Made by a program: the position numbers and the translations under genes. From NCBI GenBank assembly GCA_043812975.1, contig JBDRLP010000001.1, forward strand, positions 1 through 52,421: 52,421 nt of DNA, in the 5' to 3' direction. Below are positions 29,364-43,055 of this stretch, piece after piece; the first letter of the stretch is position 1; the number at the start of each line of letters is the position of its first letter. Origin of the DNA: Candidatus Iainarchaeum sp. (GTDB lineage Archaea; Iainarchaeota; Iainarchaeia; Iainarchaeales; Iainarchaeaceae). The notes beneath the pieces are model-generated. The model saw only the letters and a list, made by a program, of their open reading frames with translations, had not been told where the DNA came from and did not search any database.

Positions 29364-32300
29364 TTAGTCCATGAAAAATGAAGCAGGTTTTACTTCAGGA
29401 TCCATTCCTTTTCTCTTTCTTATTTCTTCAATAGTTGATTTTTGTAACTCACGTGGCAGTAACTCGTATCCTGCGTATTCAGCAGTCCAAAGAGCTCTTC
29501 CTTGAGTAGCCCCCCTGATGTTGCTTGAGAATCCGATTAGTTCTTTTACTGGGGCTTTTCCGATTATAATACTAGAATCTCCTTCAGTCCTCATTTCATT
29601 AATTTGAGTCCTTCTGGAGCCTAGTTCATTACTTACTGCGCCCAGGTAAGTTTCTGGAACTGTAATTGTAAGTTTTTGTTTTGGCTCATACAACACAGCA
29701 TCTGCTGAAAGCATACAAGCATAGCATCCTCTTGTTACTGTTGGCAACATTTGCGCAGGTCCCCTGTGAATTGCATCTTCGTGTAATGTAGCGTCTTCAA
29801 TTACAACTTTTACTCCAAAGCATTTTTCTTTTGCTAATGGTCCCTGATCCATTACATCAGTAAAACCCTGAATAACCAATTCTCTGATTTCGTGTAAAGC
29901 TTCAATTCCTCTTGTTGCATCAACTAAAACACAGTTGTTGTGTACTGCCCAGATTTTTTTGGATTCTTCTCTTCCAAAACCCATTTCCTGGAACATTGTA
30001 ATCTTTTCTTTATCTTTTGGCTTAACTTTTCCATCAAAATGTGACTTGATAAGATTCTGTCTTGTTTCCTCATCAATTAATTCAACGTGCAATTTCAGCT
30101 TGTTGTGTTTGTTAGGGCTTTTTGCCTCAACTGTTGGTGAATCCTTTCCAATAGTTTCACGGTAAACAACAATTGGCTGTGAAACTGTAATTGGAATGTT
30201 GTGGTGTTTTTCAATTCTATATTGAGTAATTTCTAAGTGTAATTCCCCCATTCCTGAAAGTAAATGTTCGCCGGTCTCCTGATTGATTGTGGCTCTTATG
30301 TTAGGGTCTTCTTTGGTAATTTGTCTTATAGTTTCAATTAACTTTGGTAAATCTTTTGTGCTTTTTGCTTCAACTGAAATTGTTATTACTGGTTCTGCTT
30401 CACTCATAAAACTTTCGAATGGTTTTATTTCTTCTGAAGCAATTGTTTCTCCAGCATAAACTTCTTTCAAACCTACAAGTGCTACAATGTTTCCTGCAGG
30501 AACTTCATTAGCTTCAATAAAATCCGGGCCCATAAAAATCCCGACTTTCTGAATCTGGATTTCTTTTTTTCCGCCGACCAAATAAACTTTACTTCCTTTT
30601 TTTACTTTTCCTGAATAACATCTTCCTGTTGCAATATCTCCTGAATGTTTATCAACACTAACATCAGTAACCATCATTGAGAATGGACTATTTTCATTAC
30701 AAGTAATCATTCCTTTTCCCATTTCGCTTTCCTTTTCCCCTTTCCAGATTATAGGCATCCTGTATTTTTGTGCCTCAATAGGATTTGGCAAATGAGTAAT
30801 AACCATTTCAAGTACAGCGTCACTTAAATGACTTTTTTCAGCAAGTGATTTTTGATCTTCATTTTTTAAGTATTCGTAAACCTGTTTGAAATTAATTTTA
30901 GTAGCTTCCATTCTTGGAACTGATACTGCCCAGTTATTGTAAGCTGATCCAAAGCACACAGAACCATCCTGGACTTTTACAGTCCACTCGTTTTTGAATC
31001 CCAGAGGACAGTTTTTTGAAATTAAATTATTAACATTAGCAATAACTTTCACAAACTTTTCCTGCATCTGCTGTTCAGTAACCTGCAGTTCGTTAATAAG
31101 CCTGTCAACTTTGTTAATATACAAAACAGGTTTTACGTATTCTCTCAAAGCCTGCCTTATTACTGTTTCTGTCTGCGGCATTACTCCTTCAACAGCATCA
31201 ACAACTAACACAACTCCGTCAACAGCTCTCATTGCTCTGATTACATCCCCTCCAAAGTCAACATGCCCCGGAGTATCAATAAGGTTGATTAAGTGCTCTG
31301 TGTCTTTGTACTTGTGTAATAGTGAAATGTTTGCAGCATTAATTGTTATTCCTCTTTCCTGTTCCTGATCCTCAGAATCCATTACAAGTTGCTTTCCAGC
31401 TAACTCTGAACTCATTAATCCTGATGCAGAAATAAGGTTATCTGTCATCGTGGTGTTGTGAACAACTATTGTTTCTGCTACAAAATTTTTTGTTTCTGGA
31501 ACACTAAAATCATAAATTGTTTCCTCAAAACCATCTTTTATTCCAGAAACCTCGATAAAAGCTAATTGACTAACATCTATTGCGGAGTTAATCCCTTTTT
31601 CTTTTAGTTTTAAAACCATTTTTTGATAAGTGTTTCTTGTCGGTATATAAATTTCGTTTTCGTATTTGTAATAATGTTTGTCTATTTCATTTTTTGATAA
31701 TTGTTTTCCTTCCCTTGATTCTTTAAATCCATTCATGGGTATTAGATCACATACCTGGCTTCCAACAATGGTTTTTTCCAGTTCTTTTGCTTTTTTCATT
31801 TTTTCCGGCAAAAAGAAACCAATATTTTTAACAAAGTTTGAGAATGATTCCCCGCTGATGGATATTGTATTGTCTTTTTCCTTTATTGCTACACATCCGA
31901 ATCTGTTTAACAATAATGGCAGCTCATCAATCATTTGATTGCTGGCACTGCTAATTGTGATTGCTTTTCTGCCTGTTTCAACGCTTCCATCAGTATCGAA
32001 GTAGCCCTTTAAAAATTTGGTAACCAACTCAGATGGAGACTTTTGCAGGAATTTTGATATTTTTACGTTGTGTGATTTTTTCTTTAAAGGATAATCAAAC
32101 AGTGCTTTTAGAATGTTTGTTAATGTTTTACTCACGCCTATTTCCGGTGTTTTTCCTTCATAGTTTCTGTTGTGTGTTTTTAATCCAAATTCTTTGCATA
32201 TTCTTTTGAATTCTTTTCCGAGTAAAGGTTTCCCGACAACAAATTTGCTTTCAGTTCCGTCCCCTATCATTAATCCCGCTAAATAAAATAATTCTTTATA

Positions 32301-33086
32301 GTTTGGTTCCCATTTTAAGTAATCGCTTCTTCTTGTTGCAATTCCACCAATCCAATTAACAATCGCTTCTTCTTCAAACTCAAAGTAATTAGATATTCCG
32401 AATAAATCAGTTAGTTGATATTTCCCGTTCCAAATACAATGATAGAATGATTTTTCTTTTAGGTTAGTTTTAATGTTTTTATAAATTTTATCAATTCCTT
32501 CTTCTAAAATTTTGTTTTTTAAATTTTCAGAAGAGTCTTTTTTTAACTTTGCATAAAAATTGTTTTTTGAAAGTATTTTTAGTAATTCCAGTGAAACATC
32601 CATTTCAGCTATTGTTTTTGTTTCTCTTGCCGTAACAATTCTTTGTCCTTTTTGTATTTCCTCTGCTTTCAAATAAGATAATTCTTTTCCATCAAAAGTA
32701 AGGAACTTGTGTTCTGGTGTTGTGGAAATACTAGATCCGTTTCTTAGGGTAATTTCTTTTGTGTTTCCGCCCTTTAGTTTCCATGCATGGGAAATTTTTT
32801 TTGTGACTATTTTACCTGTTTTTGTATCTACAGAAAAAACTTTGATGTCTTTATTTAAAGCGTAAACAATTTCCGAATTGTTTTCTTTTACTTTTTCACC
32901 ATAAAGAGAAGAGTCATTAAATAATTCTCTTGCGGTTATAAAATTCCCGTTTTCTAATTGTATTCTAGTGTCCGGGGCAACACATTTACCATGGTCAATG
33001 TGGGCAACAATCCCGATGTTTCGGATGTTTTCTCTTTTGTTCATCAGCTGTGCAGCTAATTTTACAATATCTTCTTTTTTTACCAT
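29364..33086 (-). CDS. fusA: Elongation factor 2 precursor with intein (mature protein 730 aa)
   Basis: AHIDHGK|TTMTDNL, ERGITI, DTPGHVDF, NKVDR; diphthamide site DAIHRG. Confidence 0.97.
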   Translation of the reverse strand: MVKKEDIVKLAAQLMNKRENIRNIGIVAHIDHGKCVAPDTRIQLENGNFITARELFNDSSLYGEKVKENNSEIVYALNKDIKVFSVDTKTGKIVTKKISHAWKLKGGNTKEITLRNGSSISTTPEHKFLTFDGKELSYLKAEEIQKGQRIVTARETKTIAEMDVSLELLKILSKNNFYAKLKKDSSENLKNKILEEGIDKIYKNIKTNLKEKSFYHCIWNGKYQLTDLFGISNYFEFEEEAIVNWIGGIATRRSDYLKWEPNYKELFYLAGLMIGDGTESKFVVGKPLLGKEFKRICKEFGLKTHNRNYEGKTPEIGVSKTLTNILKALFDYPLKKKSHNVKISKFLQKSPSELVTKFLKGYFDTDGSVETGRKAITISSASNQMIDELPLLLNRFGCVAIKEKDNTISISGESFSNFVKNIGFFLPEKMKKAKELEKTIVGSQVCDLIPMNGFKESREGKQLSKNEIDKHYYKYENEIYIPTRNTYQKMVLKLKEKGINSAIDVSQLAFIEVSGIKDGFEETIYDFSVPETKNFVAETIVVHNTTMTDNLISASGLMSSELAGKQLVMDSEDQEQERGITINAANISLLHKYKDTEHLINLIDTPGHVDFGGDVIRAMRAVDGVVLVVDAVEGVMPQTETVIRQALREYVKPVLYINKVDRLINELQVTEQQMQEKFVKVIANVNNLISKNCPLGFKNEWTVKVQDGSVCFGSAYNNWAVSVPRMEATKINFKQVYEYLKNEDQKSLAEKSHLSDAVLEMVITHLPNPIEAQKYRMPIIWKGEKESEMGKGMITCNENSPFSMMVTDVSVDKHSGDIATGRCYSGKVKKGSKVYLVGGKKEIQIQKVGIFMGPDFIEANEVPAGNIVALVGLKEVYAGETIASEEIKPFESFMSEAEPVITISVEAKSTKDLPKLIETIRQITKEDPNIRATINQETGEHLLSGMGELHLEITQYRIEKHHNIPITVSQPIVVYRETIGKDSPTVEAKSPNKHNKLKLHVELIDEETRQNLIKSHFDGKVKPKDKEKITMFQEMGFGREESKKIWAVHNNCVLVDATRGIEALHEIRELVIQGFTDVMDQGPLAKEKCFGVKVVIEDATLHEDAIHRGPAQMLPTVTRGCYACMLSADAVLYEPKQKLTITVPETYLGAVSNELGSRRTQINEMRTEGDSSIIIGKAPVKELIGFSSNIRGATQGRALWTAEYAGYELLPRELQKSTIEEIRKRKGMDPEVKPASFFMD
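31455..32984 (-). mobile_element. Intein (510 aa) with LAGLIDADG homing endonuclease, in the EF-2 P-loop
   Basis: Begins CVAPDT after GK; ends NFVAETIVVHN before T; TTPEHKF block B; LAGLMIGDG and FLKGYFDTDGS endonuclease motifs. Confidence 0.96.
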
Positions 33087-35063: not shown

Positions 35064-36425
35064 TTATTTTTTCATTACAAGAGTTACCCTGCCTGTTCCA
35101 ACCTTAATAGGCTGACCAACTATAATGTTTTCAACAACACCTTCAAGAGTTTCTATTTCTCCCTTGAATGCTGCGTCTAACAAGTGTTTTACTGTTTCCT
35201 CAAATGCTGCTCTTGCGAAAGGACTTGCTTTTCCTCTTGTGATTCCTGTTCTTACAATTCCTCTGATTTCTCCGTCAAAGCACATTGAATCAGCTAATAG
35301 CATTATATGTCTTATGTCAACTGCAATACTATTATCCTTCAGAACTCCAGATAATTCATTTACAATCGCCATTCTTCCTGCTTCAATTCCCAATACTTTG
35401 CTGATTTCTTTAATGTCATTAGTGGTTGTTTTTGAACCATTAATTTCCGGCAGTTTCACAATTGCTTTTAAGTTAGTGCCTCTGGTTTTAATGACTTTCT
35501 CGTTGTTCTCATCTATAAGAATAACTTTTTCAATTCCTCTGATTCCCTGAATCCTTGTTGATTTCAGTTTGTTCATGGTTCTTCTGATTTTTAAAAGTGC
35601 TTCATTTTTGAAAATAAAATCAAGCAAATACTTGTCTTTTCTTTTCCCCTCCATCTTTATGTGCTTATTGATTTTTGCAACAAGCTCATCAATATCAACA
35701 TTTCTTGATTCGATTGCTTCCTTATCAAGTTCAATTGTAACTTTTCCCTTGAATAAATCTTCATGAATTTTAATAACATCATCAATTCTTACATCAATTA
35801 ATGTTTTTGCAAAAGCATCAAGTTTTTTCTCATCTTTATTTAATTCTTCATCATCGATGTAAATTGTCATTATAGGATATTTAGCTTTTAATCTCCCGTC
35901 AACAATTTCTTCAACCCTCTGGATTCCTGATCCAACACTTACTTCTGCAGAACCCGCATAGTGTTTTGTTCTAAGTGTCAATTGTGTTCCTGGTTCCCCA
36001 AGACTTTGTGCAGTAATAATTCCTACTGCTTCTCCAGGTTCAACCATGCTTTTTTCATATCTTTCTTTAACTTGTGAAAATAGTTTTTCTTTTTCCTTGT
36101 CATTAATTTTTAATTCATTAGCGACTGTTTCAAAATCCATTAATACTTTTTTAGGAATTCCTTCTGTTTCAAAAAGATCTCCTTGTACAAATACTCTTTC
36201 AACTTCCACTACTTCTTTTTTGGTTGTTTTTTTTGGTTTCTTAACTGTTTTAGTGGTTTTTTTAGCTGTGGGTTTTGCCTTTTCACTCTTATCTTTGGTT
36301 GTGGTCTTTTTCATAGTTTTCTTAACCCCAGCACCCTTACGGGTACCTTCGGCGGGACTCCTTTTGGTCGCTGCTTTTTTTGTTTCTTTCTTTTCTTTTT
36401 TCTTGGTTTCTTTTTTTGCAACCAT
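35064..36425 (-). CDS. rpoA2: RNA polymerase subunit Rpo1C (A'') with Lys/Thr-rich N-terminal extension
   Basis: [38 protein letters not shown]. Confidence 0.97.
36326..36372 (+). repeat. Palindromic element copy, in frame in Rpo1C ([16 protein letters not shown])
   Basis: Near-identical to the copy at 21444. Confidence 0.92.
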
Positions 36426-36430
36426 AAAAA

Positions 36431-39043
36431 TCACTTACTCCTCATTTTTTCGAGTTCCCTCTGAACTGAAATGCTTCTTCCCTTGAATGTTTTCTCCGGG
36501 AATATTCCGTCTTCACCATACTTGTACTGTATAATGTTCTTGTTAGCCGTCCTTACAGTTGAATCATTGTTAACAACAAGATCTTTCAGACTGTTTGCAA
36601 GTCTTCTGTATAAGTAACCAGAAACTTTTGTGGATACTCCTGTGTCTACTTCTCCTTGTCTTCCGCCCATTGCGTGGTAAAAGAATTCAAAGCTTGTCAT
36701 TCCTTCCATAAAGTTGTGGTAAATAAATCCGCCTGCGTCAATTCCTACATCGTTCTTATGGTTTAAAGCAATTAATCTGTTGGCGAATCCTCTTTTTGGT
36801 CTTCCTTCTCTTACAGAAGCCTGTCCCCACATTCCTGAGAGGTTTACAAGGTTGATTATGTTTCCTCTGGAACCTGAAAGTATCATCACATTGCTATCGT
36901 ACTCTGGTTCATCTATCAGGACACTGTCAACAATTTCTTTTTTGATTTGTTTTTCAAGTTTCCCTTTTGCTTCAGAAGCAGTTCTCATCATGCTAACTTC
37001 GAAACTCTCTTTTAGTGTTCTTCCCGGGATAAGTTCTAATGTTCCTTTTTCGTATTTCTTCACGTGTTCTTTTGCAATTTCAGCCATTTCTTCAACAGCT
37101 TTTTCTCTGATTTTCAGAACCTTTTGAGTTGGCTTGTATTCTTCTAAACTATTTGTCATTCCAACTTCAGTTATTAAAGTTGCAACCATTTTTGAAAGTG
37201 AATCATAAAAGTTTGTGATTACTTCAGGAGGATAATCCCTTGCTAAAGCATCAACAAGTTTTCCTCTTCCTTCTCCAAGGCTCATTGAGTCAATTACTCC
37301 TGATTTCAAAATGCCGTTTTCAATCTTAACAATAAGATCGTTCTTGTAAAGGTCCTTCAGCAAAGGGTGATTCTTATCAAGATCAGTTATAATTCCCATG
37401 AACTTGCTTTTGTATTCCATGTTAAGGTTTTTTGGAAGTAACTGTGAGAAAATAAGTTTTCCTGAATACTTGTCCTTACCAACATCCGGTTTTGGAATAT
37501 CCTTTAAGCCCATAATCTGGAAAAATCTGAATGCCCTGTCTTTATTGAAAACGGTTTGTTTCATTGTTAAAATGAAACTTGCTGAAACACCATCCTCATC
37601 CAGGATAATTACTGGTCCACCGTGTCTTGGTGAAATAATTTGTTTTTGTACAATCATTAGTTCTATTGCTTCTGAAATTCCTTCAGGAGTCTGTGGAACG
37701 TGCATGTTCATTTCGTCTCCATCAAAGTCTGCGTTGTATGGTTTACAAACAATAGGGTTCATCCTGAAAGTCTTGTCATCCATTATTCTTGCCCTGTGTG
37801 CCATCATTGATAATCTGTGCAGTGAAGGCTGCCTGTTAAACAAAACAATATCTCCGTTTCTGAGTTTTCTGTCTAACCTGTAACCAACATCAAGTTCTTC
37901 ATTAATCAGATCTATGTTTGTTTCAGCAACTTTTCTTCTCATCCCATCAGGTCTTGAAACATAAATTGCTCTTCCATCTTTAATCATTTTTTTAGCTTCA
38001 ACAATGTTGTTTTTTGTTACAATTTCAGGAACTGTCATTGTTTCTGCAATTTCGCTTGGAACACCAAGTTCGTTAATTGAAAGCATTGGGTCAGGAGTAA
38101 TAATAGACCTAGCCGCAAAATTAACTCTTTTTCCTGTTAAATTATATCTGAATCTTCCTTTCTTTCCCTGTAACCTTTGAACAAGTGTTCTTAGTGCACG
38201 TCCTGATCTGTGCTTTGCCGGCGGAACTCCCGCAGTGTTGTTATTGAAATAAGTTGTAACATGGTATTGTAACAAATCCCAAAGATCCTCAATAATAAGC
38301 TGAGGCGCTCCCGCATCAATGTTATCTTTTAATCTTATATTGATTCTGATAATATCTACAAGTTTGTGTGTTAAATCATCTTCACTTTTGATTCCTGATT
38401 CAAGTGTAATGCTTGGTCTCAAGTTTATTGGCGGAACCTGCAGAACAGTCATGATGAACCATTCAGGTCTTAAATCATTAAAGCCGTAACCAAAGAATTC
38501 AACATCTTTATCAGGAATTTTTTCCATCCATTCTCTGATTTCAGTAGGGTATATTCTATCTTTTTCCAAGTAAAAGTTGGTTGGTTTATCAAGGGTCACC
38601 AAGCCTCTTTCAACATTACAATGAGGGCACTTTTTTACCTTCTTGGTTCTTGTCAGGATTTTTTTCCCAATATCCATTGAGTCATCATCTATAAATGGCC
38701 TTAATTGTTCAAGTTTTTCTTCAGGAATAACTATTCTTCCACAATTCTGGCAGCTTGCCTGCATTAATATTTCCAGTTTTTTTCCAAATTCACTGTGAAT
38801 AATTGGTCTTACAACTTCTATGTGTCCAAAGTGACCTGGGCATTTTTTCATTGTGTTTCCGCAGGTCTTACATCTCAAACCTGGGTTTATAACACCTAAA
38901 TGATTATCCATTAATCCGCCTTCCATTGGGAAGCCATCTTTGTCATAAGTTTCAGGGCTTTTGATGTCTATTGCTGACATTTTCCTGATCATTTCAGGGC
39001 TCATAATGCTAAATTCAATTGATTTGATTCTTTTTGTCATCAT
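36431..39043 (-). CDS. rpoA1: RNA polymerase subunit Rpo1N (A')
   Basis: [25 protein letters not shown] catalytic motif. Confidence 0.98.
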
Positions 39044-39133: not shown

Positions 39134-40957
39134 TCACACCTTGTCATCCAATATAAGTTTTGGGTATACTCCCAGTGCTTTTAATTCATCTAATAATAAT
39201 TTGAAACCGTAACTCATCTCAACAGGATAAATCTTAGAATCATTTACTTCAAGAACTCTTTTTGTTTTTCTTAACTGATCCTCAAATCCAATTACTCCTG
39301 CGGTTTCTGAAACCCACATTGTTACTTTGTCAGAATCATCAATGAACTTTTCCTGCAATAACATTGCAGCTCCATGTCCTACTAATGTTTCACCTTCCAT
39401 CTCTCCAAACCTTAATCCGCCTTCTTTTTCTTTTCCTTCAGTTGGTTGTCTGGTTAATATCTGTACCGGGCCTCTTGCTCTTCCCTGTATTTTGTGTGCA
39501 GTCATGTGGAATAGTCTCCTGTATGAAACCATTCCTGTAAAAATTTCTCCGTGCATTCTTTGTCCGGTTGTTCCGTCGTAGAAAACTTCTTTTCCGTTTT
39601 TCTTGAATCCTGAGGTCTCAAGCATTTTTTCAATTTCATCCTCATTAACTCCTCCAAATGGAGTTCCGTCTATTTGTTTTCCTTTTATTGCTGCTGCTTT
39701 TCCGGCAAGCATTTCTAGTAAGTGTCCAATAGTCATCCTTGATGGGATTGAGTGAGGGTTCAAAATTAAATCAGGTTTAATTCCGTCTGGAGTAAATGGC
39801 ATGTCTTCCTCAGGAACAATTAATCCAACAACCCCTTTCTGGCCGTGTCTTGAACTGAACTTATCTCCTAATGCAGGAATCCTTTCACTTCTGATTTTAA
39901 TTTTAACAAGTTTATTTCCTGAGTCAGCTTCTGTAACAAATATTTTTTCAACATGACCTGCTTTTCCTTTTCTGATTGTAATGCTTGCTTCTCTTCTTTT
40001 TTCCTGAACAACACCAAATTCGTTAATCTCTTCTAAGAATCTTGGTGGTGAGGTTTTTCCTATAATAACATCACTTTCGGTTACGTAAGATTCAAGCTGG
40101 ATTAAACCATCTTCTCCAAGTTTTTTGTAATAATCCTCTCCTAAGTGTCCTACGGTGTCCTCAGGGGGTATTTCAAACTTGTCAATCTGTCCACCAGGAT
40201 ATCTGTTTTCTGAACTTTCGTAAGTTCTGTAGTAACTGCTTCTTCCCAGACCTCTGTCGATAGCTCCTTTGTTTAGGATAACAGCATCCAGAATATTGAA
40301 TCCATAGTACGGCATTATCGCTACTACGAAATTCTGGATTTGTGGTCTTTCATTCAAACCAATCATATCCATTGTTTTTGTTTTTACAAGTGACTTTTGC
40401 GGGTAATGAAGTAAATATCCTTCTGTATCTGTTCTTAATTTGTAATTGGCTGCACCAAATCCCTGGGCTTGTTTAAACATTTTTGCACCGTGTAATGCTT
40501 TTCCAGCCATGTTGTGTTCCAAGTATGGAATCATTGAACTCACAATACTCAGAATTACAGCTCCGTCAATTTCCAAATGAGTGTGTTCTTTAGTTAACTG
40601 ATCTTCAGTTGCAGCAATTAGTGCGTTTTCTTCTTCCTCTGAATCAAGGTATTCTATGTAACCTTGTTCAACGACATCATTCCAAATAAGCTTCCTTTCA
40701 TGGACCTGTTTAACAATGTCCTCTGTGATTGTTGGTTTTCCGTTTTCAACAACAAGCAGTGGCCTTTGTACACGTCCGGCATCTGTGTTGATGTAAACTT
40801 CATTGGTGTCTTCGTGGAATGCAACATTAACCTGTTCTGAAATTTTTGATTCTCTTCTTCTTGCAATTATTTCTTTTGTAAGTTTTATAGGGTCAGGGTG
40901 GAATCCGATTAGTCTTCCGTTAATGTAAACTTTTGCTTTTTTTGCTTCGCTAACCAT
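39134..40957 (-). CDS. rpoB1: RNA polymerase subunit Rpo2C (B')
   Basis: GDKFSSRHGQKG, PSRMTIG, GGLRFGEME; start at ATG 40957. Confidence 0.97.
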   Translation of the reverse strand: MVSEAKKAKVYINGRLIGFHPDPIKLTKEIIARRRESKISEQVNVAFHEDTNEVYINTDAGRVQRPLLVVENGKPTITEDIVKQVHERKLIWNDVVEQGYIEYLDSEEEENALIAATEDQLTKEHTHLEIDGAVILSIVSSMIPYLEHNMAGKALHGAKMFKQAQGFGAANYKLRTDTEGYLLHYPQKSLVKTKTMDMIGLNERPQIQNFVVAIMPYYGFNILDAVILNKGAIDRGLGRSSYYRTYESSENRYPGGQIDKFEIPPEDTVGHLGEDYYKKLGEDGLIQLESYVTESDVIIGKTSPPRFLEEINEFGVVQEKRREASITIRKGKAGHVEKIFVTEADSGNKLVKIKIRSERIPALGDKFSSRHGQKGVVGLIVPEEDMPFTPDGIKPDLILNPHSIPSRMTIGHLLEMLAGKAAAIKGKQIDGTPFGGVNEDEIEKMLETSGFKKNGKEVFYDGTTGQRMHGEIFTGMVSYRRLFHMTAHKIQGRARGPVQILTRQPTEGKEKEGGLRFGEMEGETLVGHGAAMLLQEKFIDDSDKVTMWVSETAGVIGFEDQLRKTKRVLEVNDSKIYPVEMSYGFKLLLDELKALGVYPKLILDDKV

Positions 40958-41015
40958 ATGCGGAGACCTCCGCATTCAGAGGTGTGCACCTGCGGTAGCA
41001 CCTATTAAAATTCAT
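40950..41015 (-). CDS. Bridge mini-ORF, 21 aa (MNFNRCYRRCTPLNAEVSAYG)
   Basis: ATG overlaps the rpoB'' stop; TAG overlaps the rpoB' start (ATGGTTAG). Confidence 0.45.
   Translation of the reverse strand: MNFNRCYRRCTPLNAEVSAYG
40958..41000 (+). repeat. Junction element with SD-containing hairpins between rpoB'' and rpoB'
   Basis: ATGCGGAG-AC-CTCCGCAT and GAGGTGTGCACC..GTAGCAC. Confidence 0.85.
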
Positions 41016-42478
41016 TTAAGTTTCACTCCCATGTCGTTCAATAATTTTTCAACTGGGTCTTCTTCAGTTTCAGTTGTTACTTCTGCAAGCATTGCCAAAT
41101 TTTTTACCAAACCACATTGTGGTCCGTCAGGAGTTTCTACAGGGCATAGTCTTCCCCAGTGGGTTCCGTGAACGTCCCTTGCTTCATAAAGTTCTCTGTT
41201 TTTGTCAAGCGGGCTCTTAACTTTTCTCAGGTCAGTTAATGGAGATAAATAATTAACTCTGTCCATGAACTTTGAAACCCCAGTAGCCCTGCCAATCCAG
41301 TTTCCTGTACTCATAGCAAACCTGATTCTTTCTGATACTGCGCCCGGCCTTACAATAGTTGAAATGTTAAGTTTTCTTCTTCTTGTAACAGTTCTGTCAA
41401 TCTGGAATTTCAAATCTTTAATGAAATATTTGAACGAGTACCTGAATAAGTGTTCCATTAATTTTCCTGACAATTCCAGTCTTTTGTTAGCATAATGGTC
41501 CTTATCATCTTCTTCCCTTAAATCATAAGCTCTTTCAATTGCCTTAGTTGCCATCATAACCAAGTAATATGCTTTAGCAAGCCTGTCTTTTGAATCCTGT
41601 CCAATGTGCGGTAACAGGAAAGCATCTATTACTTCCTGTGCTCTTCTAAGCCTGTACTCTTCCACCTGCCCTGGTGCGACAAATTTCCCGATTTTGTCAA
41701 GAGCTTCTTTTTCAGATTTTACTAATAAATTTTCATTATTAATCAGAACATCATTTTGTACTTCCATTTCATCAACAAAAGCATCCTTAATTGACTGTGA
41801 TGTTTTGATTCCGAGTGCTTTCAGTAAAACAAATAGTTTTAATTTTCTTGGTGAAGCCGGGAAGGTAACATGCAGGAGTCCATCTGGGCTTCTTAAGATT
41901 CTTACTCTTCCTTTGAAAGCGCCTTTAGTTGAGATAACTTCTGCAACAATTTTATCTGTCTGTTCTGAAACAATAACTCTGTCAGAAGCTAAAACTTCCT
42001 GAGTCATCAAAGCTTTTTCAGAACCATTTACAATGAAGTAACCTCCAAAGTCCATTGGGTCTTCTTTTAATTCAATTAGTTCTTCTTTGGTTTTTCCGTT
42101 CAACCAGCAAAGATGACTTTTAAGCATTACGGGTAATTCGCCGATGTAAGTATCTTTCCGATCATGCTCAACATCTCTTCTCAGAAGTTTCATGGTTAAG
42201 TTAATAGGGCTTGAGTAGGTTCTGTTTCTCAGCCTTGCTTCTATTGGGTAGAATTCGTTTCTGGGTGAACCGTCAGCTTCAACAATTCTTGGTTTTAAAA
42301 TACTAATCTTGTCAAACTCAACTTTTACTTCCTCAATCTTAGGAACAACTTCTTTGTTTTCAGCAACAATTTCCGGAAGTTTCTTTTTAACAAACTGGTT
42401 GAAAGAATCAATTTCCATCTGGGCAATATTTCTGTCTCTGAAATAAGAATTGATTAGGGTCCAGCCGTTAATAGCCAT
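41012..42478 (-). CDS. rpoB2: RNA polymerase subunit Rpo2N (B'')
   Basis: IDSFNQFV, EARLRNRTYS, GYFIVNGSEK, HWGRLCPVETP; start at ATG 42478 with GAGGTG SD. Confidence 0.97.
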   Translation of the reverse strand: MAINGWTLINSYFRDRNIAQMEIDSFNQFVKKKLPEIVAENKEVVPKIEEVKVEFDKISILKPRIVEADGSPRNEFYPIEARLRNRTYSSPINLTMKLLRRDVEHDRKDTYIGELPVMLKSHLCWLNGKTKEELIELKEDPMDFGGYFIVNGSEKALMTQEVLASDRVIVSEQTDKIVAEVISTKGAFKGRVRILRSPDGLLHVTFPASPRKLKLFVLLKALGIKTSQSIKDAFVDEMEVQNDVLINNENLLVKSEKEALDKIGKFVAPGQVEEYRLRRAQEVIDAFLLPHIGQDSKDRLAKAYYLVMMATKAIERAYDLREEDDKDHYANKRLELSGKLMEHLFRYSFKYFIKDLKFQIDRTVTRRRKLNISTIVRPGAVSERIRFAMSTGNWIGRATGVSKFMDRVNYLSPLTDLRKVKSPLDKNRELYEARDVHGTHWGRLCPVETPDGPQCGLVKNLAMLAEVTTETEEDPVEKLLNDMGVKLK

Positions 42479-42600
42479 TAAACAACCACCTCGCCGTTTT
42501 CCCACTTCGTGGACTTCGCGACCGGCGGCACCGAAGCACACTGCTTCGCAGTGGGCGTGCTCGCTTCGCTCGCAAAATAATTGCCGATTATACAACCACC
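42477..42600 (+). repeat. Junction element (42492-42573) between rpoH and rpoB'', flanked by a 14-bp near-perfect duplication
   Basis: ATTA(A/T)ACAACCACC at 42477-42490 and 42587-42600. Hairpins CCAC-TTC-GTGG and CACTGC-TTC-GCAGTG; CTCGCTTCGCTCGC module. Confidence 0.88.
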
Positions 42601-42830
42601 CTGTAGTAAACGCTTATGCCTGCGGTTTGGCTTGATCTTGTTATTTTAATGAAGTCTCCTTTTTTACCGCCAATTTCTTCTACTGCGGGATCGTCTTTCA
42701 GAAGTTGCGGGAATTGGTCAGCAGTAGAACCGAATTTTTTAAGTATTTCTTCAACTTTTTCCTCAGGCACGATTTCGTGTTTAGGAACTAAAAAATGATT
42801 GCCAACTTTCTCCAAACCAGACTTTTCCAA
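42588..42830 (-). CDS. rpoH: RNA polymerase subunit Rpo5 (H); start uncertain (TTG 42830 or 42815)
   Basis: HFLVPKHEI, QFPQLLKDDP, KITRSSQTAGISVYYRVV. Confidence 0.94.
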   Translation of the reverse strand: MEKSGLEKVGNHFLVPKHEIVPEEKVEEILKKFGSTADQFPQLLKDDPAVEEIGGKKGDFIKITRSSQTAGISVYYRVVV

Positions 42831-43055
42831 ACCCAAATGAACCAAACTCCAAACTAATTCCTCTTCTAAGCGGGCAAAAACACGTGTATCGGGATAAAAC
42901 ACGCAAAAATCATGAAAATTTAAGCTGCCAAACACCTAGAAAAATCGATAAACCCAAAGATTACTACTAATCTATCATAGAAAGGAATTTAAAGCTTACA
43001 TTAAAAATGAGGAAATCGGGATAACTTTTAATAAAGTATGCTATATTTTTGATGC

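What the first reader, a model, noticed from the sequence alone, without database searches (positions are those of the whole stretch)
36590..36690. RNA polymerase bridge helix carries radical substitutions
Seen: [26 protein letters not shown]. Established consensus is close to HAMGGREGL(I/V)DTAVKTAxxGYxQRRL in archaea and eukaryotes. Here E>Q, L>E, A>G, K/R>S and Q>Y cluster in the element that drives catalysis and translocation. Unusual active-site residues have been reported for Nanoarchaeum RNA polymerase. Whether this exact pattern is lineage-wide cannot be determined here.
Basis: partly seen in the sequence, partly recalled or inferred. Interest (0 to 1): 0.6.

Follow-up and report, generated by a model that had tools for sequence, protein, structure and literature searches.

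The report
Remodelled bridge helix in Iainarchaeota polymerase
The only RNA polymerase of this tiny DPANN archaeon (Iainarchaeota/Diapherotrites) has a rewritten but strictly conserved bridge helix, part of a phylum-wide rebuild of the enzyme's moving active-site parts in a lineage where I also found no cleavage factor TFS; similar rewiring is published for Nanoarchaeota, so this is a new variant of a known oddity.

Summary
The 26-residue motif is residues 790-815 of an intact 870-aa Rpo1N (A') gene, at window 36599-36676 on the minus strand. It is the single copy in a 1.24-Mb genome.

Against canonical archaeal and Pol II bridge helices it carries E812Q, L814E, A818G, R820S, A822K, Q823V, M827L and Q828Y (M. 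jannaschii numbering). All residues known to touch template, RNA or NTP, and both hinge glycine sites, are intact.

The pattern is lineage-wide. The 23-residue core is identical in 40 genomes of the order and is encoded by 39 different DNA versions, with locus GC of 30-54%. E814 and S/T820 occur in every order of the phylum that I read. Canonical archaea lack these changes, and other DPANN have different variants.

It is part of a wider rebuild. The trigger loop has F-to-K and has lost the hinge proline. The Rpo2 NTP loop has R-to-K and Y-to-H. The Metal-B glutamate is lost.

No TFS was found in 0 of 215 Iainarchaeota genomes, against 24 of 26 other archaea.

The best reading is an epistatically co-evolved, functional variant that changes bridge-helix and trigger-loop dynamics, not the chemistry. 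Nanoarchaeota and Woesearchaeota are a published precedent, and this scan found similar cases in other DPANN. Verdict: new variant of a known kind.

The parts
36431..39043 (-). Rpo1N (RNA polymerase subunit A'), 870 aa, single copy in the genome
   Evidence: ORF and translation. Pfam Rpb1 domains 1-5. PDB Rpo1N at E about 1e-255. One match in G000.
36599..36676 (-). Variant bridge-helix core, residues 790-815. In mjA' numbering: E812Q, L814E, A818G, R820S, A822K, Q823V, M827L, Q828Y. The full helix with flanks is about 36578-36688.
   Evidence: Conservation. Rarity.
35064..36434 (-). Rpo1C (subunit A''), 456 aa, with a Lys-rich N-terminal extension of about 70-100 aa
   Evidence: Pfam Rpb1 domain 5. 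PDB Rpo1C alignment starts at residue 105. Extension compared across relatives.
35892..36011 (-). Trigger loop, Rpo1C residues 142-181. The Phe before the catalytic His is replaced by Lys. The LGLPR hinge reads SGIQR, so the proline is lost. The catalytic His is kept.
39134..40975 (-). Rpo2C (subunit B'), 613 aa
   Evidence: Pfam Rpb2 domains 4-7. PDB alignment.
40487..40519 (-). Rpo2 NTP-binding loop. The canonical S-P-R-N-T-(M/Y)-G reads A-G-K-A-L-H-G. This gives the yeast Rpb2 R766 equivalent as Lys and the Y769 equivalent as His.
   Evidence: The mapping to yeast numbering is from my own knowledge of Rpb2.
40280..40303 (-). Rpo2 Metal-B motif. The canonical N-(M/I)-E-D reads N-I-L-D, so the first acidic residue is lost.
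41012..42595 (-). Rpo2N (subunit B''), 527 aa
   Evidence: Pfam Rpb2 domains 1-3.
42588..42935 (-). Rpo5 (subunit H), the first gene of the rpoH-B''-B'-A'-A'' cluster
   Evidence: Pfam Rpb5_C.

Best explanation
This is the working bridge helix of the organism's only RNA polymerase. It is a lineage-specific version fixed in Iainarchaeota, and it evolved together with changes in the parts it touches: the trigger loop, the Rpo2 NTP loop and the Metal-B motif.

Shown:
- The catalytic scaffold is kept: NADFDGD, the two hinge glycine sites, T821, G825, Y826, R829/R830 and the trigger-loop His.
- Two charges are each moved two residues towards the C-terminus. The acidic residue moves from 812 to 814 and the basic residue from 820 to 822. 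Net charge stays at +2.
- The central segment 814-823 gains Gly and Ser in place of Ala and Arg, so its helix propensity falls.

Inferred:
- The D816-R820 salt bridge, and the packing of the R/K820 side chain on the closed trigger loop, are lost.
- They are replaced by a different bridge-helix/trigger-loop/Rpo2 interface.
- The enzyme therefore differs in the dynamics of trigger-loop closure, translocation, pausing and backtracking. The chemistry of bond formation is unchanged.

Single substitutions such as R820S would be harmful in a canonical enzyme and are viable here only within the co-evolved set (epistasis).
For: - The gene is intact, single-copy and in the canonical rpoH-B''-B'-A'-A'' cluster.
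- Purifying selection is strong. The identical 23-aa core occurs in 40 genomes, encoded by 39 DNA versions. Third-position identity is about 50% and locus GC is 30-54%.
- Phylum level: E814, loss of the acidic residue at 812 and S/T820 are present in all orders read. K822 with trigger-loop Lys marks the main order.
- Contact residues reported as essential in mjRNAP (T821, G825, Y826, R829) are retained (PMC2776397).
- R820 is reported to tolerate only F or W (PMC8204694). A822 tolerates bulky residues.
- Yeast K830 forms a salt bridge to D826 and packs on TL V1094 (PMC5127505). E. coli K789 contacts TL L930 (PMC3077646).
- Yeast epistasis data match the co-occurring changes here. TL F1084R is lethal alone but is suppressed by Y769F. 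BH T834P depends on TL P1099 (PMC12391331). Here TL Phe is Lys, Rpo2 Tyr is His and the TL Pro is lost.
- Fixed changes at positions at least 95% conserved in archaea are concentrated in Rpo1N 750-822: 10 of 40 there against 12 of 223 elsewhere, Fisher p = 4e-4. In the bridge helix proper the counts are 5 of 24 against 17 of 239, p = 0.04.
- Net charge is +2 in the variant and in canonical helices. The helix-propensity cost of 814-823 is 6.0 against 3.9-4.6.
Against: - No biochemical or structural data exist for this enzyme. All functional statements are transferred from M. jannaschii, yeast and E. coli.
- The enrichment of changes in the bridge helix itself is modest. Counting any change gives 7 of 24 against 43 of 239, p = 0.15.
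- Co-occurrence of bridge-helix, trigger-loop and Rpo2 changes may reflect one or a few ancestral branches, so it carries little statistical weight as covariation.
- Rpo2 His at the Y769 position also occurs in a sister order that keeps the trigger-loop Phe.
- AlphaFold models of the isolated subunit have pLDDT below 50 over the bridge helix in both the variant and a canonical control, so they do not settle the helix question.
Confidence: 0.72

Rival explanations
1. The rebuild is specifically tied to loss of the cleavage factor TFS. Without a factor to rescue backtracked complexes, the bridge helix, trigger loop and Metal-B site were retuned to avoid backtracking or to raise intrinsic cleavage. 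Alternatively, such retuning came first and made TFS dispensable. This can be true together with the best explanation.
For: - PF01096 scored over its cut-off in 0 of 215 Iainarchaeota genomes, and in 0 of 58 genomes that are at least 90% complete.
- TIGR01384 gave nothing in G000 even at E <= 1.
- My own HMM, built from 8 DPANN and Asgard TFS sequences, found nothing among 19,070 six-frame ORFs of G000. The acidic-hairpin motif was also absent.
- No Gre factor was found.
- The same model found TFS in 4 of 4 archaeal control genomes, 7 of 9 other DPANN, 1 Thorarchaeota and 12 of 12 Thermoplasmatota, at E about 1e-18 to 1e-22.
- The Metal-B Glu, which helps hold the Mg ion that TFS stabilises (PMC5715097), is missing in every order of the phylum.
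- Bridge-helix bending is linked to backtracking, according to the title of Da et al. 2016 as cited.
Against: - Six Thermoplasmatota with Gln in place of the Metal-B Glu all keep TFS.
- N. equitans has a remodelled bridge helix and Metal-B site yet encodes TFS (PMC8204694).
- Within Iainarchaeota the traits coincide on what may be a single ancestral branch, so this is effectively one observation.
- Losing a Metal-B ligand would be expected to weaken intrinsic cleavage, not strengthen it.
Confidence: 0.25
2. Compensated drift. Slightly harmful substitutions were fixed in small populations of a reduced-genome symbiont, then locked in by compensatory changes. They bring no functional shift of biological meaning.
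For: - The genome is small (1.24 Mb).
- Several DPANN phyla each have their own bridge-helix variant: Woesearchaeota, Parvarchaeota, Aenigmatarchaeota and an Altiarchaeota-labelled MAG.
- 50 of 263 otherwise conserved Rpo1N positions differ, so divergence is general.
- Strong epistasis in this active site is documented (PMC12391331).
Against: Present-day selection on the new residues is very strong. The charge-conserving double shift, and the convergence of two DPANN lineages on a destabilised central helix by different means (Gly and Ser here, Pro in Woesearchaeota), look more like a directed change in dynamics. Drift and a functional shift are not exclusive.
Confidence: 0.3
3. Artefact, pseudogene, specialised second polymerase, or by-product of AT-rich base composition.
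For: The window is AT-rich, with GC 36%. Some changes (A>K, Q>Y) go towards AT-rich codons.
Against: - The ORFs are intact and there is one copy in the genome.
- The same protein sequence is found in 40 genomes whose loci range from 30 to 54% GC.
- Other changes (A>G, I>A) are not AT-driven.
- The 12 nearest cluster representatives in public data share the motif.
Confidence: 0.02
4. Escape from an inhibitor that targets the bridge-helix/trigger-loop pocket or the secondary channel, such as a host or viral factor like TFS4 or a small molecule.
For: This is inference only. TFS4 is proposed to interfere with these elements through the secondary channel (PMC5715097); that alpha-amanitin, streptolydigin and CBR compounds bind at them is from my own knowledge. 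The E812 equivalent contacts alpha-amanitin in Pol II (also my own knowledge).
Against: No inhibitor is known for these organisms. The changes are ancient and fixed, not variable as expected in an arms race.
Confidence: 0.04

Closest known systems
Nanoarchaeum equitans / Woesearchaeota / Pacearchaeota RNA polymerase active-site variant (Nottebaum and Weinzierl 2021, PMC8204694)
   Same: It is a DPANN lineage with radical, lineage-fixed substitutions in the bridge helix, trigger loop and Metal-B motif of the sole RNAP. The same bridge-helix position (mjA' A822) is hit. The central helix segment around R820 is predicted to be destabilised. The C-terminal part G-Y-L-Y-R-R-L-A-N (Q828Y, I832A) is shared with Woesearchaeota.
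   Different: That variant has Pro at 822 and keeps L814 and R820. Here 822 is Lys, R820 is Ser, L814 is Glu and A818 is Gly. Its Metal-B Glu is Gln, whereas here it is Leu or another non-acidic residue. N. equitans encodes TFS, whereas none was found in Iainarchaeota. The Nanoarchaeal enzyme has been reconstituted and shown to be active. This one has not.
Canonical archaeal Rpo1N / eukaryotic Rpb1 bridge helix (Thermococcus 4QIW/6KF3, Pyrococcus 8CRO, Sulfolobus 2WAQ/2PMZ, yeast Pol II 1I3Q; M. jannaschii mutagenesis PMC2776397, PMC2988716)
   Same: The length and register are the same, with no indels. The H-A-M-G-G-R start, D816, T817, V819, T821, S824-G825-Y826 and R829-R830-L831 are kept. 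The position at the C-terminus of Rpo1N, just before the A'/A'' split, is the same.
   Different: Eight substitutions lie within 17 residues. They include two positions that are invariant or nearly so in 64 canonical archaea (L814, A818) and the universally basic 820.
Bacterial beta' bridge helix (E. coli 769-805; PMC3077646)
   Same: The Y-L-x-R-R-L ending resembles the bacterial Y-L-T-R-R-L. Position 812 is not acidic in bacteria either (K781).
   Different: Bacteria keep L783 and K789, the equivalents of L814 and R820. Overall similarity is low, at E about 1e-7 for the region.

Membership tests
Archaeal Rpo1N (RpoA1, subunit A') of multisubunit RNA polymerase | Rpb1 domains 1-5 in order, ending just after the bridge helix | tested here: met
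   Pfam PF04997, PF00623, PF04983, PF05000 and PF04998 (residues 781-847), all above their cut-offs.
Archaeal Rpo1N (RpoA1, subunit A') of multisubunit RNA polymerase | Catalytic NADFDGD Metal-A loop | tested here: met
   [11 protein letters not shown] is present in the translation. It is invariant in alignments A1 and A2.
Archaeal Rpo1N (RpoA1, subunit A') of multisubunit RNA polymerase | Gene context rpoH-rpoB-rpoA1-rpoA2 followed by L30e, NusA, S12 and S7 | tested here: met
Canonical bridge helix (archaea and eukaryotes) | Hinge glycines (mjA' G809/G810 and G825) and the template, RNA and NTP contacts T821, Y826, R829, R830 | tested here: met
   All are present. Their roles are taken from PMC2776397 and PMC2988716.
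Canonical bridge helix (archaea and eukaryotes) | Leu at 814, Ala at 818, Arg/Lys at 820, small residue (Ala/Ser) at 822, Gln at 828 | tested here: not met
   The residues here are Glu, Gly, Ser, Lys and Tyr. Among 138 non-Iainarchaeota representatives these occur 0, 2, 1, 2 and 15 times. None occurs in the named non-DPANN archaea.
Nanoarchaeota-type remodelled RNAP active site (PMC8204694) | Proline in the bridge helix at the mjA' A822 position (neA' P810) | tested here: not met
   The residue here is Lys. Pro is seen in the Woesearchaeota, Parvarchaeota and Altiarchaeota-labelled loci.
Nanoarchaeota-type remodelled RNAP active site (PMC8204694) | Simultaneous unusual substitutions in the trigger loop and the Metal-B motif | tested here: met
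   In the trigger loop, Phe is Lys and the hinge Pro is lost. The Metal-B Glu is Leu. The residues differ from those of N. equitans.
Nanoarchaeota-type remodelled RNAP active site (PMC8204694) | Enzyme shown to be catalytically active in vitro | not testable with these tools
   Only purifying selection and single-copy status argue for activity.

The most novel reading that the evidence does not exclude
Iainarchaeota transcribe without any secondary-channel cleavage factor. The joint rebuild of bridge helix, trigger loop and Metal-B site is what makes that possible, or what followed from it. This would be a naturally TFS-independent archaeal RNA polymerase with a different way of avoiding or resolving backtracking and of proofreading.
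Probability: 0.2. Interest if true: 0.75.

Novelty: new variant of a known kind. Interest (0 to 1): 0.5.

Why it matters
The bridge helix is one of the most constrained elements in biology. Saturation mutagenesis of M. jannaschii RNAP reports that R820 tolerates almost nothing. Here nature has fixed Ser at that position across a whole order, together with L814E, a relocated Lys and matching changes in the trigger loop and Rpo2. This amounts to a ready-made multi-residue suppressor set, which makes the epistasis network of the RNAP active site testable in the recombinant archaeal system. The apparent phylum-wide lack of TFS contradicts the published statement that TFS1 is conserved in all archaea except Methanopyrus kandleri (PMC5715097). 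That raises the question of how these cells deal with backtracked polymerases. It also adds a third independent DPANN solution to the Nanoarchaeota case, so active-site rewiring looks like a general feature of DPANN RNA polymerases. The closest earlier case in this scan is a hot-vent archaeal family; an Aenigmatarchaeota case was also noted.

Tried and rejected
1. I first read the trigger-loop Asn-to-Arg change and the G-E-P-G-T-Q-L start as unusual and bacteria-like, from comparison with Thermococcus only. I rejected this. Most of the non-DPANN loci among 80 named archaeal loci have Arg there, and Asn is the minority state.
2. I tested for a strict link between loss of the Metal-B Glu and loss of TFS. 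Six Thermoplasmatota with Gln at that site all have TFS, so the link is at most loose.
3. I looked for per-substitution activity values (L814E, A818G, R820S, A822K, Q828Y) in the supplements of PMC2776397. They are images, so no numbers are readable.
4. I ran AlphaFold2 on isolated Rpo1N. In the variant the helix is broken at 797-809. In a Methanolobus control the helix is almost continuous. But pLDDT is below 50 over the bridge helix in both, so this is a weak hint and not evidence.
5. Base-composition bias as the cause was rejected.
6. A second, canonical polymerase gene was not found.
7. Literature searches for the bridge helix with DPANN, and for Diapherotrites or Iainarchaeum with RNA polymerase or TFS, found no description of this variant or of the missing TFS.
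8. I did not run complex prediction, because a pass for textbook partners would not have changed the reading.
9. TFS status of sister phyla such as Micrarchaeota could not be sampled systematically with the handles available.
Full report
WHAT IS THERE. The window's minus strand carries the archaeal RNA polymerase cluster:
- Rpo5/H at 42588-42935.
- Rpo2N at 41012-42595.
- Rpo2C at 39134-40975.
- Rpo1N at 36431-39043.
- Rpo1C at 35064-36434.
- These are followed by L30e, a NusA-like KH protein, S12, S7, an intein-bearing EF-2 and EF-1alpha.

The protein has all five Rpb1 Pfam domains and an intact NADFDGD loop. It matches solved Thermococcus, Pyrococcus and Sulfolobus Rpo1N chains at E about 1e-255. 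It is the only rpoA1 in the 1.24-Mb genome, which is 94% complete. Names attached to close homologues place the organism in Diapherotrites/Iainarchaeota, for example GW2011_AR10 and Candidatus Iainarchaeum.

THE SUBSTITUTIONS. I aligned the motif without gaps to the bridge helices of solved archaeal RNAPs and yeast Pol II and numbered it as in M. jannaschii A'. The window has E812Q, L814E, A818G, R820S, A822K, Q823V, M827L and Q828Y, and further on I832A, A834S and Q/E836K. The following are kept:
- The H-A-M-G-G-R start with the N-terminal hinge glycines.
- D816, T817 and V819.
- T821, and S824-G825-Y826 (the C-terminal hinge).
- R829-R830-L831.

According to Tan et al. (PMC2776397), T821, G825, Y826 and R829 contact the NTP, the RNA 3' end or the template and cannot be changed. 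All are intact here. By contrast, R820 is reported to tolerate only Phe or Trp (PMC8204694). A822 tolerates bulky residues. E812 contacts are described as rather non-specific (PMC2988716).

Two features are visible in the sequence itself:
- The acidic residue moves from 812 to 814 and the basic residue from 820 to 822. The net charge of the 28-residue stretch stays at +2, as in every canonical form compared.
- Ala and Arg in the centre are replaced by Gly and Ser. On the Pace-Scholtz scale (values recalled from memory) this raises the helix cost of 814-823 from 3.9-4.6 to 6.0. That is close to the 6.3 that Woesearchaeota reach with a proline.

LINEAGE-WIDE AND UNDER SELECTION. In 30 relatives from the genus, family and order (19 families, down to 59% overall identity) the core motif is essentially invariant, the only changes being S820A in two loci and one L831F. 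Across the loci held at that point, 40 distinct genomes encode the identical 23-residue core with 39 different DNA versions. Third-codon-position identity is about 50% and locus GC runs from 30 to 54%. This shows strong purifying selection and excludes base composition as the cause.

The GTDB phylum sample holds 215 species genomes, one large order plus smaller ones. In divergent families of the main order, small variations appear: E retained at 812, Ser or Ala at 818, and one family with Lys at both 820 and 822. The other orders have different versions. All orders read share Glu at 814, a non-acidic residue at 812 and Ser or Thr at 820. A Lys or Arg sits at 817, 818 or 822.

RARITY ELSEWHERE. 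I searched 110 residues around the helix against 1.84 billion cluster representatives. This gave 4853 hits. Only 12 had E <= 1e-30 and all 12 carry the Iainarchaeota motif. The rest drop to about 50% identity. Among the 138 nearest other representatives, E814 occurs 0 times, S820 once, G818 twice, K822 twice and Q812 twice.

I also read 80 named archaeal loci covering Methanobacteriota, Halobacteriota, Thermoplasmatota, Hadarchaeota, Thermococci, TACK, Asgard and several DPANN. Every non-DPANN locus has the canonical helix.

Other DPANN have their own variants:
- Woesearchaeota, Parvarchaeota and an Altiarchaeota-labelled MAG have Pro at 822. This is the pattern published for N. equitans, Woesearchaeota and Pacearchaeota (PMC8204694; naming confirmed).
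- An Aenigmarchaeota MAG has yet another version.
- The Q828Y/I832A ending is shared between Iainarchaeota and Woesearchaeota.

IT IS NOT ONLY THE BRIDGE HELIX.
- In the trigger loop (Rpo1C 142-181, window 35892-36011) the Phe before the catalytic His is Lys, and the otherwise invariant L-G-L-P-R hinge reads S-G-I-Q-R. The His is kept.
- Trigger-loop Lys co-occurs with bridge-helix K822 in the main order. Sister orders keep Phe and have Gln or Arg at 822.
- In Rpo2C, the loop that in yeast carries R766 and Y769 reads K and H. The Metal-B N-x-E-D motif reads N-I-L-D.
- The Metal-B Glu is missing in every order of the phylum that I read, replaced by L, M, T, Q, A, K, Y, F or at best D.

Measured against 64 canonical archaeal Rpo1N sequences, 263 columns are at least 95% conserved. 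The window's protein differs at 50 of them, and 22 of these changes are fixed in 12 diverse Iainarchaeota. Ten of the 22 lie in residues 750-822 (10 of 40 conserved columns there against 12 of 223 elsewhere, one-sided Fisher p = 4e-4). Five lie in the bridge helix proper (5 of 24 against 17 of 239, p = 0.04). Counting any change, the bridge helix is not significantly enriched (p = 0.15). L814E is among the most radical fixed changes in the whole subunit. Related sequences are not independent, so these figures are descriptive.

HOW IT PROBABLY WORKS. Published work gives the likely partners of the changed residues:
- Yeast K830 (mj R820) forms a salt bridge to D826 and packs on trigger-loop V1094 in the closed state (PMC5127505).
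- E. coli K789 contacts trigger-loop L930, and K789A impairs growth (PMC3077646).
- In yeast Pol II, trigger-loop F1084R is lethal alone but is suppressed by Y769F. F1084, Q1078 and Y769 lie together in the closed state. The BH-HC hinge allele T834P depends on trigger-loop P1099 (PMC12391331).

The Iainarchaeales enzyme has changed exactly these interacting positions together. I therefore read the variant as an epistatically co-evolved interface between bridge helix, trigger loop and Rpo2. It keeps the chemistry and alters the ease and stability of trigger-loop closure and of bridge-helix bending, and hence translocation, pausing and backtracking. The residue changes are shown. The altered dynamics are inferred.

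AlphaFold2 models of the isolated subunit are at best suggestive. In the variant the middle of the helix (797-809) is not helical, while a Methanolobus control is helical apart from the two hinges. Confidence is below 50 in both.

AN UNEXPECTED COMPANION: NO TFS FOUND.
- The TFIIS-type zinc ribbon (PF01096) scored over its cut-off in 0 of 215 Iainarchaeota genomes, and in 0 of 58 genomes that are at least 90% complete.
- TIGR01384 found nothing in G000 even at E <= 1.
- An HMM I built from eight DPANN and Asgard TFS sequences found nothing among all 19,070 six-frame ORFs of G000. The acidic-hairpin motif is absent.
- No Gre factor was found either.
- The same Pfam search found TFS in 4 of 4 archaeal control genomes, 7 of 9 other DPANN genomes, a Thorarchaeote and 12 of 12 Thermoplasmatota.

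The literature states that TFS1 is conserved in all archaea except Methanopyrus kandleri (PMC5715097). TFS works by stabilising Mg-B through the secondary channel (same paper). Loss of the Metal-B Glu and the rebuild of the two mobile elements could therefore be connected with life without TFS. The link is not strict. Thermoplasmatota with Gln at the Metal-B site keep TFS, and N. equitans has both a remodelled site and TFS. I rate this connection at about 0.25.

COMPARISON AND NOVELTY. The kind is known: radical, lineage-fixed substitutions in the RNAP active centre of DPANN archaea (Nottebaum and Weinzierl 2021). That enzyme was shown to be active. Earlier reports of this scan describe analogous rewiring in other DPANN; the two I use are a hot-vent archaeal family (e1-5305097) and an Aenigmatarchaeota genome (e1-5776853). 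The Iainarchaeota pattern is different. It has no proline, it loses R820 and L814, and it has relocated charges. I found no description of it, or of the missing TFS, in the searchable literature. It is therefore a new variant of a known kind, of moderate interest. Its main value is as a natural multi-site suppressor set for the archaeal recombinant RNAP system, and as a lead on transcription without a cleavage factor.

Noticed in passing
whole genome G000 and 214 other genomes of the phylum: No TFS (TFIIS-type zinc ribbon) was found with PF01096, TIGR01384 or my own DPANN-tuned HMM, and no Gre factor either. The same search finds TFS in 24 of 26 other archaeal genomes. A paper states that TFS1 is conserved in all archaea except Methanopyrus kandleri.
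   Followed up: partly
window 36130-36434 (-), N-terminus of Rpo1C: Rpo1C starts with a Lys/Thr-rich low-complexity extension of about 70-100 aa (36 Lys+Arg in the first 116 residues) that solved Rpo1C chains lack. Extensions of varied length and sequence, mostly Lys/Arg-rich, occur in most families of the order and in one sister order, but are missing in several others. I did not test a connection.
   Followed up: partly
window 29364-33086 (-): The EF-2 gene (1240 aa) carries an intein with a LAGLIDADG domain inside its GTPase domain.
   Followed up: no
G086, G088, G089 (open frames of about 1262-1269 aa); G016 (1381 aa); G167 (1365 aa); protein P0126 (1363 aa): In some Iainarchaeota the frame holding the Rpo1N C-terminus is far longer than 870 aa. 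This suggests fused A'-A'' (or B'-A') subunits or inteins. Fused A'-A'' has been reported for two Pacearchaeota.
   Followed up: no
L029 (G039:C28): The Rpo1N match contains one in-frame TAA in an otherwise conserved gene.
   Followed up: no
L093, L126, L105, L149 (Thermoplasmata, Methanolliviera, Methanobacteriota and Methanoxibalbensis loci): The trigger-loop alignment is interrupted right after the G-T-Q-M start, and two of the loci resume with H-N-T. This looks like an intein inserted in the trigger loop of Rpo1C.
   Followed up: no
L102 (MAG labelled Aenigmatarchaeota): Its bridge helix, trigger loop and Rpo2 motifs are canonical and nearly identical to those of a Thermoplasmatota MAG (L099). 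The label or the binning may be wrong.
   Followed up: no
window 39134-40975 (-), Rpo2C residues about 525-531: The conserved G-E-M-E-R-D motif reads G-E-M-E-G-E in most of the order.
   Followed up: partly
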